A stretch of 64,000 nucleotides of DNA from a virus. This document shows, in pieces, positions 23,525 to 24,322 of this stretch (position 1 is the first letter of the stretch; every line of letters starts with the position of its first letter). The notes under the pieces are model-generated. The model was not told the origin of the DNA and did no database searches. It worked only from the letters and a program-made list of their open reading frames with translations. The position numbers were made by a program, and so were the translations under genes. The stretch lies in the IMG/VR virus record IMGVR_UViG_3300042882_001508; one strand, given 5' to 3'.

Positions 23525-24322
23525 ATGAAAGAAAAATCAGTAATCCCTATCAATCAAGAAGAAATTTCGAGTTACCTCAAAGACATTCGTAAAATTACTG
23601 TCATGACTCCTGAGAGAGAAAGAGAATTGGCAGAGAAAATGCTCAATCCCAATACATCTAATAAGGAAAAAGATGAAATTAAGAAAGAACTATTGGAAGG
23701 AAATCTCCGATTTGTAATTACTGTTTCTAAACAGTATCAAAATCAAGGATTAGATTTCCCTGACTTGGTTGCAGAAGGCAATTACGGATTAATGAAGGCA
23801 ATCGAAAATTTCGATTGGTCAAAAAAACTAAGATTTATTTCATACGCCGTTTGGTGGGTACGTCAGTCCATTCTTCAATCATTGAACGAGAACGCTAGAA
23901 CCATACGTCTTCCTGTAAACGTTGTACAAGAACTCCAAAAAGCAAAAAAAGAATTAGACAATGCTGGAGTTGAACTCCCTGATAAGTTTGTAAATCTTCC
24001 CTATACAGTAGATTTGGATAGTCCTCTCAACGAGGATGGTGACACACTTATGGATGTTTTGATAAACCCAAATGCAGATGCTGCTGATACTTGTGAATCA
24101 ACCGAGCAAACTCTTAAAGATAAATTGTTGTCTATGTTAGATGTCTTGGACGAACGAGAGAGGGTGATTATTGAGGATTATTTCGGTCTCACAGGTAACA
24201 CTAGAACCCTTGAAGATATTGGTAATGATTTTGATTTAACTAAGGAGAGGGTCCGACAAATTAAGGAGAAAGCCCTTCGAAAACTCCGAAATGAAACAGG
24301 AATTCTATTTGACTTCCTATAA
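23525..24322 (+). CDS. Sigma-70 family RNA polymerase sigma factor, Bacteroidetes sigma-A-like
   Basis: Region 2 [36 protein letters not shown] and [13 protein letters not shown] are close to Bacteroidetes RpoD. Region 4 helix-turn-helix is [28 protein letters not shown]. A hairpin terminator follows the gene. Confidence 0.8.
   Translation: [265 protein letters not shown]

What the first reader, a model, noticed from the sequence alone, without database searches (positions are those of the whole stretch)
23525..24322. Phage-encoded full-length sigma-A-like sigma factor of the Bacteroidetes type
The protein has sigma-70 regions 2, 3 and 4, and region 2 ([36 protein letters not shown]) is nearly the Bacteroidetes RpoD sequence. 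Bacteroidetes sigma A lacks region 1.1 and recognises a -33/-7 promoter instead of -35/-10. A phage copy could redirect or boost host RNA polymerase on phage promoters. It sits directly upstream of the putative lysis cassette.
Basis: partly seen in the sequence, partly recalled or inferred. Interest (0 to 1): 0.55.

Follow-up and report, generated by a model that had tools for sequence, protein, structure and literature searches.

The report
Phage sigma factor of Bacteroidota type
A large uncultured phage of Bacteroidota carries a shortened copy of its host phylum's main sigma factor, made from a host-type promoter and probably used to steer the host RNA polymerase onto a second class of phage promoters; phage sigma factors are a known kind of thing, so this is a solid but not startling find.

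Summary
The ORF is real: 23525..24322 +, 265 aa, containing the quoted peptide. It is a sigma-70-family protein with regions 1.2, 2 and 4. It is not ECF or sporulation type.

It carries the Bacteroidota sigma-A signatures (NLRFV..[15 protein letters not shown][IV]RQSILQ). It groups with Prevotella-type SigA against other phyla with 98.5% NJ bootstrap.

It is not full length. About 20 residues of region 3 are missing, as in a whole family of short phage sigmas. There is no Pfam r3 hit, and the model shows one helix between sigma2 and sigma4. Region 2 is 62-64% identical to cellular SigA, not "nearly" identical.

The context is a tailed phage. Relatives occur on at least 582 IMG/VR contigs, several of 304-326 kb.

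Genes lack Shine-Dalgarno sites. Two strand-specific upstream motifs exist:
- The host-type -7 element TAnnTTTG, conserved before the DUF6576-sigma operon.
- A distinct TATTTAT motif, 95-96% conserved before the lysis cassette and ORF 28600, and present before the first tail-fibre gene.

The best reading is an early or middle phage sigma that redirects host core polymerase, probably to the TATTTAT promoters. That last step is inferred, not shown. I rate it a new member of a known kind, of moderate interest.

The parts
22967..22974 (+). Host-type -7 promoter element TATATTTG, 12 nt upstream of the first gene of the DUF6576-sigma operon
   Evidence: A TAHHTTTG element occurs before the orthologous upstream ORF in 35 of 44 distinct related loci.
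22987..23499 (+). 170-aa protein with a C-terminal DUF6576 domain. It is probably co-transcribed with sigma. Its function is unknown.
   Evidence: Pfam PF20216, E 1.3e-9. In related phages it ends 1-10 nt before sigma or overlaps it. AF2 gives a ferredoxin-like N-terminal domain, an acidic disordered linker and a helical C-terminal domain. There is no informative PDB match.
23525..24322 (+). Phage sigma factor gene, 265 aa plus stop
23567..23641 (+). Region 1.2 (aa 15-39). No region 1.1 precedes it. A 'NPNTSNKEK' insertion of about 6 aa follows, before region 2.1.
   Evidence: Pfam PF00140, E 2.3e-5; alignment A1
23693..23899 (+). Region 2 (aa 57-125), with the Bacteroidota signatures NLRFV..[8 protein letters not shown] and [14 protein letters not shown]
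   Evidence: Identity to Prevotella-type SigA is 62-64%.
23900..24109 (+). Remnant of region 3 (aa 126-195): one predicted helix (131-146) and a region 3.2-like linker. About 20 aa of region 3.0/3.1 are missing.
   Evidence: No PF04539 hit; gap in alignment; spacing of 129 against 149-151; AF2 model, low confidence in this stretch
24137..24292 (+). Region 4 (aa 205-256) with the helix-turn-helix [18 protein letters not shown]. It carries a family-specific Lys where cellular sigmas have Arg (E. coli R584).
   Evidence: Pfam PF04545, E 9.4e-16; group-specific position analysis
24328..24360 (+). 14-bp hairpin immediately after the sigma stop codon. It is a terminator-like end of the operon.
   Evidence: Fold of -17.4 kcal/mol, z -3.76. 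A hairpin is present in most related loci with a different stem sequence. The simple terminator scan did not call it.
24338..24344 (+). Class-2 motif TATTTAT, 46 nt upstream of the lysis cassette and embedded in the hairpin. A second copy-like ATATTTAAAGG lies at 24359-24369.
   Evidence: TATTTAT is present before the orthologous gene in 35 of 37 distinct loci.
24391..25959 (+). Putative lysis cassette: 94-aa membrane protein, 226-aa multi-pass membrane protein and a 205-aa Amidase_2 endolysin
   Evidence: PF01510, E 9.8e-9. The membrane character is read from the sequences.
28579..28586 (+). Class-2 motif ATATTTAT, 13 nt upstream of ORF 28600..30093
   Evidence: It is conserved in 24 of 25 distinct orthologous upstream regions although the proteins average 43% identity.
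39600..39607 (+). Class-2 motif ATATTTAT, 18 nt upstream of the first of three collagen-like tail-fibre genes
   Evidence: tail-fibre annotation
11680..11687 (+). Class-2 motif ATATTTAT, 5 nt upstream of the 749-aa ORF 11693..13942

Best explanation
The gene encodes a functional sigma factor of a large (about 320 kb) uncultured tailed phage that infects Bacteroidota. It descends from the Bacteroidota primary sigma (sigma-A, the type that lacks region 1.1). It keeps region 1.2, the whole sigma2 domain, a region-3.2-type linker and sigma4. It has lost most of the sigma3 domain.

Proposed sequence of events:
1. After infection, the host sigma-A holoenzyme reads a host-type promoter (TTTG/TAnnTTTG class) in front of a two-gene operon, DUF6576 protein plus sigma.
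2. The phage sigma binds host core RNA polymerase.
3. It directs the polymerase to phage promoters.

The most likely targets are a second promoter class with the core TATTTAT(A/T)A. This class lacks the host-invariant G at -5 and a -33 TTTG. It precedes the lysis cassette, the first tail-fibre gene and other large ORFs. That would make a host-sigma to phage-sigma temporal cascade.

Shown here: the identity, lineage and domain make-up of the protein; the phage context; the two conserved motif classes and which genes they precede. Inferred: binding to core, and which motif class the phage sigma reads.
For: Sigma identity and lineage:
- Pfam r1.2, r2 and r4 all hit, and RpoD/RpoS are the best NCBIfam models.
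- The protein shares Bacteroidota signatures that are absent from other phyla's SigA.
- At the positions equivalent to E. coli sigma70 T440, R441 and H455, it and its family have L, Q and N, as Bacteroidota SigA does. Other phyla have T, R and H.
- NJ bootstrap is 98.5% for the clade of 96 Bacteroidota-type sequences against 36 others. P0161, a member of that clade, is 79-82% identical to Prevotella RpoD/SigA.

Phage context:
- Three collagen/Peptidase_S74 tail fibres, SbcCD, primase and amidase.
- At least 582 IMG/VR contigs encode relatives, several of 304-326 kb.

Host type:
- No Shine-Dalgarno use: 3 of 78 genes against 4.8% of random 17-mers.
- SprB repeats in ORF 9456.
- The bipartite pattern TTTG-N17-21-TAHHTTTG occurs 12 times against 2.8 expected.

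Expression from a host-type promoter: TAHHTTTG precedes the upstream ORF in 80% of distinct related loci.

Second promoter class:
- In sense-oriented upstream segments, ATATTTAT occurs 8 times against 0.58 expected, and TATTTATA[AG] 7 times against 0.24. No shuffle out of 500 reached these counts. The reverse complements are not enriched.
- The motif is conserved in 95% of loci before the lysis cassette and 96% before ORF 28600 orthologs. It occurs in 0-8% of operon-internal genes, most of them 0%.
- It persists after the sigma stop codon even where the hairpin stem sequence differs.
- In F. johnsoniae, T-12 and G-5 are nearly invariant in host promoters (PMC6847099), so TATTTAT is a poor host-sigma site.

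Family-specific changes are conserved: R584K, the sigma3 deletion, and the insertion between regions 1.2 and 2.1.

This is the only sigma70-family ORF in the window.

A 47%-identical short sigma sits in an unrelated smaller phage. It lies among host-type promoters, and TATTTAT precedes two opposite-strand operons there.
Against: - No experiment or transcript data links this sigma to any promoter.
- Its -10/-7-recognition residues are essentially those of host SigA. That fits recognition of TAnnTTTG at least as well as recognition of TATTTAT.
- Only 64 kb of a genome of about 320 kb was examined, so another factor could read class 2. A gp55-like minimal sigma would not be found by my profile.
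- Class-2 promoters show no -33-like element, yet the protein keeps a complete sigma4 helix-turn-helix.
- ORF 28600 is not shown to be structural. Its orthologs vary from 379 to 650 aa.
- The AF2 model is of modest confidence (mean pLDDT 62.5).
- The NJ tree was built only from the top 150 hits.
Confidence: 0.5

Rival explanations
1. Sigma-A surrogate. The phage sigma has the same promoter specificity as host sigma-A (TTTG/TAnnTTTG). It simply adds to or replaces the host factor on the many host-type promoters of the phage. This could matter if host sigma-A is inactivated or limiting during infection. The TATTTAT promoters would then be read by something else.
For: The DNA-contact positions of regions 2.3/2.4/3.0 match Bacteroidota SigA (Y430, W433, W434 and Q437 are kept; L, Q and N sit at 440/441/455). 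The window has many host-type promoters: 12 bipartite matches against 2.8 expected, and 12 -7 elements in upstream segments against 2.5 expected. Sigma4 is intact.
Against: The sigma's own operon depends on a host-type promoter. Host sigma-A therefore already works on phage DNA, and an identical specificity would be redundant unless the host factor is shut off. No anti-sigma was identified. The family-specific changes (R584K in 88%, the sigma3 deletion, the insertion after region 1.2) are conserved. That suggests an altered function rather than a copy.
Confidence: 0.3
2. Host-manipulation gene. The sigma acts mainly on host genes, reprogramming host metabolism or stress responses, as proposed for sporulation-like sigmas of Firmicutes phages. 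On this view it is dispensable for phage gene expression.
For: Phage sigmas of this sort are documented (bioRxiv 10.1101/2021.11.12.468384). The protein derives from a cellular sigma.
Against: It occupies a fixed position in a conserved operon, between the replication/repair genes and the lysis genes, across diverged phages. It is well conserved (85-95% identity, constant 265 aa). A conserved phage-specific promoter class needs a reader. A primary-type sigma would not obviously select a special host regulon.
Confidence: 0.1
3. Not a phage gene: the window is bacterial DNA and this is the cell's own RpoD, or an ECF or sporulation-type alternative sigma.
For: Source databases label members 'RNA polymerase primary sigma factor' or 'RpoD/SigA [bacterium]'.
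Against: - Tail fibres, the phage replication module and the lysis genes all sit on one strand, and no housekeeping genes are present.
- Hundreds of IMG/VR viral contigs encode relatives.
- All RpoD equivalog cut-offs are missed by a wide margin (186.8 bits against 555).
- Region 3 is shortened, unlike nearly all the cellular SigA sequences sampled.
- ECF and SigK models score much lower than RpoD models.
- No close copy was found in GTDB representative genomes, although that scan was weak.
Confidence: 0.02

Closest known systems
Bacteroidota primary sigma factor (sigma-A, 'sigma-ABfr'; RpoD/SigA of Bacteroides, Prevotella, Flavobacterium)
   Same: No region 1.1. The same signature residues in regions 2.1-2.4 and 3.0 (NLRFV, [22 protein letters not shown], N at the H455 position). 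The same clade (98.5% bootstrap). The phage genome carries the matching TTTG/TAnnTTTG promoters.
   Different: Only 44-47% identical overall. 265 aa against about 286. About 20 residues of the sigma3 domain are deleted and there is no Pfam r3 hit. A roughly 6-aa insertion follows region 1.2. Lys replaces Arg at the R584 position of region 4.2. It is encoded by a phage, not a cell.
RpoD-like 'complete' sigma factors of group 2 jumbo phages, including the Bacteroidetes phages Lak and Tenacibaculum PTm1 (Iyer et al. 2021, PMC7824862)
   Same: A cell-derived, multi-domain sigma-70-family protein in a very large phage that has no RNA polymerase genes in the region seen. It is presumed to recruit host core polymerase.
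   Different: Sequence relation is distant: 27.6-27.9% identity to the Lak phage proteins, and no cultured-phage hit reaches 40%. The sigma3 truncation and the associated TATTTAT motif class are not described for those phages in the paper read. Whether this phage belongs to 'group 2' was not tested.
Bacillus phage SPO1 gp28 and gp33/34; T4 gp55 (classical phage sigma cascades; from general knowledge)
   Same: Works like them in the proposed model. A phage sigma made from a host-type promoter switches host core polymerase to a later promoter class. Like T4 late promoters, class 2 has only a -10-region element and no upstream element.
   Different: There is no detectable specific sequence relation. 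gp55 is a minimal sigma2-only protein that needs gp33 and the sliding clamp. This protein keeps sigma4 and is a recent derivative of a primary sigma.
Sporulation-like sigma factors of Firmicutes phages (bioRxiv 10.1101/2021.11.12.468384)
   Same: A phage-borne sigma captured from the host phylum.
   Different: Those resemble alternative (SigF/G/E/K) sigmas and act on host programmes. Here the SigK models score only 80-88 bits against 171-187 for RpoD models.

Membership tests
Sigma-70 family | Sigma2 domain (regions 2.1-2.4) with core-binding and -10-melting residues | tested here: met
   PF04542, E 4.5e-15, aa 57-125. The residues equivalent to Y430, W433, W434 and Q437 are conserved.
Sigma-70 family | Sigma4 domain (regions 4.1-4.2) with a helix-turn-helix | tested here: met
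   PF04545, E 9.4e-16, aa 205-256
Group 1 (primary, RpoD/SigA) sigma | Region 1.2 present | tested here: met
   PF00140, E 2.3e-5, 24.7 bits against a cut-off of 22
Group 1 (primary, RpoD/SigA) sigma | Complete sigma3 domain (regions 3.0-3.1, Pfam PF04539) | tested here: not met
   No r3 hit, whereas all retrieved cellular Bacteroidota SigA carry PF04539. Gap of about 21 aa. Spacing of 129 against 149-151. AF2 predicts a single helix, at low confidence.
Group 1 (primary, RpoD/SigA) sigma | Passes curated RpoD equivalog models | tested here: not met
   Best score is 186.8 bits against a cut-off of 555 (NF004208). RpoD_Cterm scores 171.5 against 354.
Group 1 (primary, RpoD/SigA) sigma | Essential housekeeping sigma of a cell | tested here: not met
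   The gene is encoded on phage contigs, not in a cellular genome.
Bacteroidota sigma-A lineage (sigma-ABfr) | Absence of region 1.1 | tested here: met
   Region 1.2 starts at about residue 13-15 of 265. This feature of the lineage is described in PMC6847099.
Bacteroidota sigma-A lineage (sigma-ABfr) | [quoted passage not shown] | tested here: met
   Regions 2.3-2.4 and 3.0 match: L, Q and N at the 440/441/455 positions, and ISYAVWW. Region 4.2 is similar but has the family-specific R584K change.
Bacteroidota sigma-A lineage (sigma-ABfr) | Phylogenetic placement within the clade | tested here: met
   NJ bootstrap of 98.5% for Bacteroidota-type sequences against other phyla. Distance method only, on the top 150 hits plus 4 added sequences.
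Bacteroidota sigma-A lineage (sigma-ABfr) | Recognises -33 TTTG / -7 TAnnTTTG promoters | not testable with these tools
   Such promoters are enriched in the phage. Which sigma reads them cannot be determined from sequence.
ECF (group 4) sigma | Only sigma2 and sigma4, about 160-200 aa, no region 1.2 or 3.2 | tested here: not met
   It has region 1.2 and a region-3.2-like linker, and is 265 aa long. The generic superfamily model TIGR02937 scores 101 bits, below the RpoD models at 171-187.
Sporulation-type sigma (SigK/E/F/G) | Best match to sporulation sigma models | tested here: not met
   SigK models score 79.7-87.6 bits against cut-offs of 252-299.
MzaA (anti-phage MZA system sigma) | Passes NF041931 | tested here: not met
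   167.2 bits against a cut-off of 800, and only the C-terminal sigma part aligns.

The most novel reading that the evidence does not exclude
A widespread family of sigma-A-derived phage sigma factors that have lost the sigma3 domain forms the late-transcription switch of Bacteroidota phages. The family comprises dozens of 50%-identity clusters and occurs in jumbo phages and in unrelated smaller phages. On this reading the sigmas read a previously undescribed promoter class (TATTTAT at about -12 to -6, no -33 element, often positioned to give leaderless mRNAs). That class is distinct from the host TTTG/TAnnTTTG promoter. The translationally coupled DUF6576 protein may act as a partner. This would be the first defined phage-specific promoter/sigma pair for this phylum.
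Probability: 0.35. Interest if true: 0.6.

Novelty: new member of a known kind. Interest (0 to 1): 0.42.

Why it matters
Bacteroidota transcription is unusual: the sigma-A lacks region 1.1, promoters are of the -33/-7 type, and there is no Shine-Dalgarno. Almost nothing is known about how their phages time gene expression. One survey found sigma genes in only two Bacteroidetes phages.

This locus gives a concrete, testable cascade: host-type promoter, then phage sigma, then TATTTAT promoters before lysis and tail-fibre genes. The phage group is very abundant in metagenomes.

If confirmed, three things would follow:
- The naturally sigma3-less derivative of a primary sigma would show which parts of sigma-A are dispensable for holoenzyme function.
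- The pair would provide an orthogonal sigma/promoter tool for Bacteroidota.
- The two motifs would help annotate early and late genes in uncultured Bacteroidota phages.

If not confirmed, it remains an ordinary example of a phage that has captured a host sigma.

Tried and rejected
- Megablast of 11 kb around the gene against cultured phages found nothing. tblastn found nothing above 40% identity. Many 'phage' hits look like bacterial rpoD in mislabelled records.
It returned only 25-45% identical Firmicutes and Gemmatimonadota sigmas. It is therefore uninformative about the nearest cellular relatives and only weakly argues against prophage copies.
- The PDB holds no Bacteroidota SigA. The best solved relatives are three SigA chains (7l7b, 7ckq, 8x6f), which I take from memory to be Firmicutes SigA. 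Bit scores alone therefore did not discriminate phyla. Signature residues and a tree were needed.
- The sigma-70 consensus promoter scan was not enriched (21 against 16.4), and the simple terminator scan missed the hairpin after the gene.
- PHROGs and Pfam gave nothing for most neighbouring ORFs.
- I tried to find a role for the DUF6576 partner with AF2 plus Foldseek against the PDB. This gave only a generic ferredoxin-like (ACT/PII-like) fold, best E 2.7e-3, with no resemblance to known anti-sigma or sigma-binding proteins.
- I considered ORF 28600 as the major capsid protein. I dropped the idea because its orthologs vary from 379 to 650 aa and 31-58% identity.
- I considered reading TATTTAT as a weak variant of the host -7 element (register nATATTTA). 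This seems less likely because T-12 would not be conserved and G-5 would be replaced. The -12..-6 register makes the modal spacings of both classes place the start site on the A of ATG.
- Literature searches for a Bacteroidota holoenzyme structure and for this phage group found nothing specific.
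Full report
**Observation**

An ATG-to-stop ORF lies exactly at 23525..24322 on the + strand and encodes 265 aa.

Pfam finds Sigma70_r1_2 (aa 15-39), Sigma70_r2 (aa 57-125) and Sigma70_r4 (aa 205-256). It finds no Sigma70_r3 at E<=0.01.

The best NCBIfam models are RpoD and RpoS, at 171-187 bits. All fall far below their equivalog cut-offs. SigK models score 80-88 bits and the generic sigma70-ECF superfamily model 101 bits. The best PHROG is 'RNA polymerase sigma factor', phrog_351, E 1.8e-53.

**Is it a phage?**

The evidence says yes.
- The high-GC block at 39.6-47.3 kb is three consecutive collagen-repeat tail-fibre genes, each with a C-terminal Peptidase_S74 chaperone domain.
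- Upstream of sigma lie a primase, an exonuclease and SbcD/SbcC-like nucleases, and a pyrimidine-dimer glycosylase.
- Downstream lie two membrane proteins and an Amidase_2 enzyme.
- Nearly all genes are on one strand.
- The exact protein is recorded in 126 blocks of the metagenome collection.
- More than 120 clusters at 85-95% identity, nearly all 265 aa long, exist.
- A scan of IMG/VR found at least 582 viral contigs encoding relatives. Eight of the 80 contigs kept are 304-326 kb, which points to a jumbo phage of roughly 320 kb.
- No cultured phage has a relative above 40% identity.

**Which sigma lineage?**

In an exhaustive HMMER search of 1.84 billion representatives, the hits fell into three groups:
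- a family of short proteins of about 247-275 aa;
- proteins of about 285-291 aa;
- longer RpoD-like proteins.

One of the 287-aa proteins, P0161, is 79-82% identical to proteins named RpoD/SigA of Prevotella, on contigs of more than 300 kb. That ties this length class to cellular Bacteroidota SigA.

The window protein, the short family and the Bacteroidota SigA share NLRFV..[8 protein letters not shown] and ISYAVWW[IV]RQSILQ. Other phyla have NLRLV..KRY.GRG and STYATWWIRQAITRA.

At the positions equivalent to E. coli sigma70 T440, R441 and H455, the phage family and Bacteroidota SigA have L, Q and N. Other phyla keep T, R and H.

A bootstrapped neighbour-joining tree was built on the 265 aligned positions. 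It separates the 96 Bacteroidota-type sequences, the window protein included, from 36 others with 98.5% support. Support for monophyly of the short family is low.

Identity to Prevotella-type SigA is 62-64% in region 2 and 44-47% overall. The lineage claim holds, but 'nearly the RpoD sequence' is too strong.

**Not full length**

- The distance from the WW motif (region 2.3) to the TRERxRQ motif (region 4.2) is 149-151 residues in most of the cellular SigA sequences where both motifs could be located, from any phylum. It is 129 in the window protein and 122-142 across the short family.
- The alignment places a gap of about 21 residues in region 3.0/3.1. It also shows an insertion of about 6 residues (NPNTSNKEK) between regions 1.2 and 2.1.
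- Every retrieved cellular Bacteroidota SigA carries Pfam PF04539. The phage family does not.
- An AlphaFold2 model has mean pLDDT 62.5. Sigma2 scores 73-82 and sigma4 63-74. It shows one helix (131-146) and then a low-confidence segment (149-195) between the two domains, rather than a three-helix sigma3 domain.
- A region-3.2-like segment ([18 protein letters not shown]) aligns with the SigA chains in the PDB.
- The only strongly family-specific change at a DNA-contact position is Lys for Arg at the E. coli R584 position in region 4.2. It is K in 88% of the short family, and R in 90% of cellular Bacteroidota SigA and 100% of others.

**Host signals in the DNA**

Genes show no Shine-Dalgarno sequences. 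Three of 78 have a 5-mer core at -20..-4, against 4.8% of random 17-mers. This is the Bacteroidota pattern described in PMC6847099.

The sigma-70 consensus is not enriched. The bipartite Bacteroidota promoter TTTG-N17-21-TAHHTTTG occurs 12 times against 2.8 expected, and no shuffle out of 100 reached that count.

ORF 9456 contains SprB repeats.

**Two promoter-like motif classes**

I took 38 sense-oriented upstream intergenic segments and shuffled them with dinucleotides preserved.

| Motif | Observed | Expected | Shuffles reaching observed count |
|---|---|---|---|
| TAnnTTTG | 12 | 2.5 | 0 of 500 |
| ATATTTAT | 8 | 0.58 | 0 of 500 |
| TATTTATA[AG] | 7 | 0.24 | 0 of 500 |

The reverse complements are not enriched, so both motifs are strand-specific.

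Class 1 (TAnnTTTG) often has a TTTG 15-27 nt upstream (6 of 13 sites). Class 2 almost never does (1 of 13 sites).

Across 80 related loci from IMG/VR plus one metagenome locus (L026), the class is conserved gene by gene:
- The ORF upstream of sigma has class 1 in 35 of 44 distinct upstream regions.
- The glycosylase gene has class 1 in 11 of 16, always exactly 4 nt before the ATG.
- The first lysis-cassette gene has class 2 in 35 of 37.
- ORF 28600 orthologs have class 2 in 24 of 25, although the proteins average 43% identity.
- Operon-internal genes score 0-8%, most of them 0%.

Directly after the sigma stop codon, TATTTAT persists even where the surrounding hairpin has a different stem sequence (GGTGTA..TACACC against CCTTCTAT..ATAGAAGG) or is absent.

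In F. johnsoniae, T-12, A-11, T-8, T-7, T-6 and G-5 are nearly invariant, and transcription starts 4-5 nt after the element. Class 2 therefore violates host-invariant positions in either possible register.

**Operon structure at the locus**

- A class-1 element (22967-22974) lies 12 nt before the DUF6576 gene (22987..23499).
- Sigma follows after 25 nt with no motif in between.
- A 14-bp hairpin (24328-24360; -17.4 kcal/mol, z -3.76) follows the stop codon.
- Class-2 elements at 24338-24344 and 24359-24369 precede the lysis cassette.
- The order DUF6576, sigma, small membrane protein, membrane protein, Amidase_2 is kept in a phage group whose sigma is only 66% identical.
- Sigma is the only sigma-70-family ORF detectable in the window.

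**Mechanism**

What is shown:
- The protein is a Bacteroidota-SigA-derived sigma without region 1.1 and without most of sigma3.
- It is encoded by a phage.
- It sits behind a conserved host-type promoter.
- Next to it, and elsewhere in the genome, lies a distinct conserved promoter-like motif. That motif precedes the lysis cassette, the first tail-fibre gene (39600-39607) and several large ORFs.

What is inferred:
- The protein binds host core polymerase. Its region 2.1/2.2, region 3.2-like and region 4 segments are conserved.

I put about 0.9 on 'functional phage sigma of the Bacteroidota SigA lineage'. I put about 0.45 on the class-2 assignment.

The main rival is a surrogate with host specificity. 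It is favoured by the near-identity of the -7-recognition residues. It is disfavoured by redundancy and by the conserved family-specific changes.

**A wider family**

A 47%-identical short sigma (P0285) lies in an unrelated, smaller phage with a PF04860 portal and a Terminase_3. It sits among textbook TTTG-N19-TATCTTTG promoters. TATTTAT lies before two opposite-strand operons there. The sigma3-less form is therefore not confined to the jumbo phage group.

**Comparison with what is known**

Phage-encoded sigmas are classical. RpoD-like 'complete' sigmas in jumbo phages are described, including the Bacteroidetes phages Lak and Tenacibaculum PTm1, and are thought to be captured from cells (PMC7824862). 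The Lak proteins are only about 28% identical to this one.

A survey of reference phage genomes found sigma genes in only two Bacteroidetes phages.

The finding is thus a new, well-populated member of a known kind. Its own features are the sigma3 loss and an associated candidate promoter class.

**Dead ends**

- The GTDB scan was uninformative.
- The PDB has no Bacteroidota SigA.
- The DUF6576 partner has only a generic ferredoxin-like fold, with no anti-sigma resemblance.
- ORF 28600 is too variable to be called a capsid protein.

Noticed in passing
window 60911-61322 (+); tRNA at 60290-60366 (+); promoter-like sites at 60158-60189 and 60386-60417: A full-length GOLLD RNA is present (Rfam RF02032, 317.9 bits against a gathering score of 150, E 3e-90). 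A tRNA-Met(CAT) lies just upstream. Two bipartite host-type promoter matches (TTTG-N-TAHHTTTG) flank the tRNA. A GTATTTAT motif lies 13 nt before the next ORF (61395). This is GOLLD in a Bacteroidota jumbo phage.
   Followed up: partly
window 14578-14585, 21950-21957, 36261-36268, 53375-53382, 63071-63078 (class 1); 11680-11687 and 54885-54892 (class 2): Five genes have TAnnTTTG ending exactly 4 nt before the ATG. In F. johnsoniae transcription starts 4-5 nt after this element, so these mRNAs would be leaderless. The glycosylase gene keeps this spacing in 11 of 16 related loci. F. johnsoniae itself has mostly leadered mRNAs (87% have a leader longer than 10 nt). Several class-2 sites show the analogous spacing.
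   Followed up: partly
window 22987-23499 (+): A 170-aa DUF6576-containing protein is always found 1-10 nt upstream of sigma, or overlapping it, in related phages. It evolves faster than sigma (47-99% against 85-95% identity). It has a ferredoxin-like N-terminal domain, an acidic disordered linker and a helical C-terminal domain. It could be a partner or modulator of sigma, but nothing supports a specific role.
   Followed up: partly
window 39626-47272 (+): Three tandem tail-fibre genes of about 820-895 aa are made largely of collagen Gly-X-Y repeats, each with a C-terminal Peptidase_S74 intramolecular chaperone domain. They explain the jump in GC from about 0.32 to 0.46-0.55.
   Followed up: yes
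whole window (78 gene starts): There are no Shine-Dalgarno sequences upstream of start codons (3 of 78 against 4.8% in random 17-mers). Upstream regions are A/T-rich instead. This matches Bacteroidota translation initiation.
   Followed up: yes
IMG/VR loci L035, L040, L046, L048, L064, L083, L086, L096: Contigs carrying this sigma cluster at 304-326 kb. This suggests complete jumbo-phage genomes of about 320 kb, and the 64-kb window is only about a fifth of that. The sample numbers look like freshwater lake metagenomes from memory, but this was not checked.
   Followed up: no
window 28600-30093 (+) and orthologs in L027-L104: A gene preceded by a 96%-conserved TATTTAT motif has a product that varies from 379 to 650 aa and 31-58% identity between related phages. 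It has no family hit. The preceding DUF5661 protein (27430-28572) contains a repeated EATEATSS..G.YS.P motif.
   Followed up: partly
window 9456-11654 (+); 32461-33378 (+); about 30680-30862 (+): Unusual cargo is present: an ORF with SprB (gliding-adhesin) repeats, a full DnaJ (J domain, zinc finger and C-terminal domain), and a 60-aa Hc1 histone-H1-like protein (precomputed Pfam on the identical contigs).
   Followed up: no
proteins P0144 and P0166: P0144 is a predicted 7852-aa protein with a sigma-like stretch at residues 3100-3346 (38% identity). It may be a read-through gene call in a phage with a recoded stop codon. P0166 is a 291-aa full-length SigA-like protein that carries the same 'SPNTSDKEK' insertion after region 1.2 as the phage family. 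It may be an intermediate form.
   Followed up: no
loci L107/L108: An unrelated smaller phage (PF04860 portal, Terminase_3, holin) carries a 47%-identical short sigma within a cluster of small genes. Each of these has a textbook TTTG-N19-TATCTTTG promoter. TATTTAT precedes two operons on the opposite strand.
   Followed up: partly
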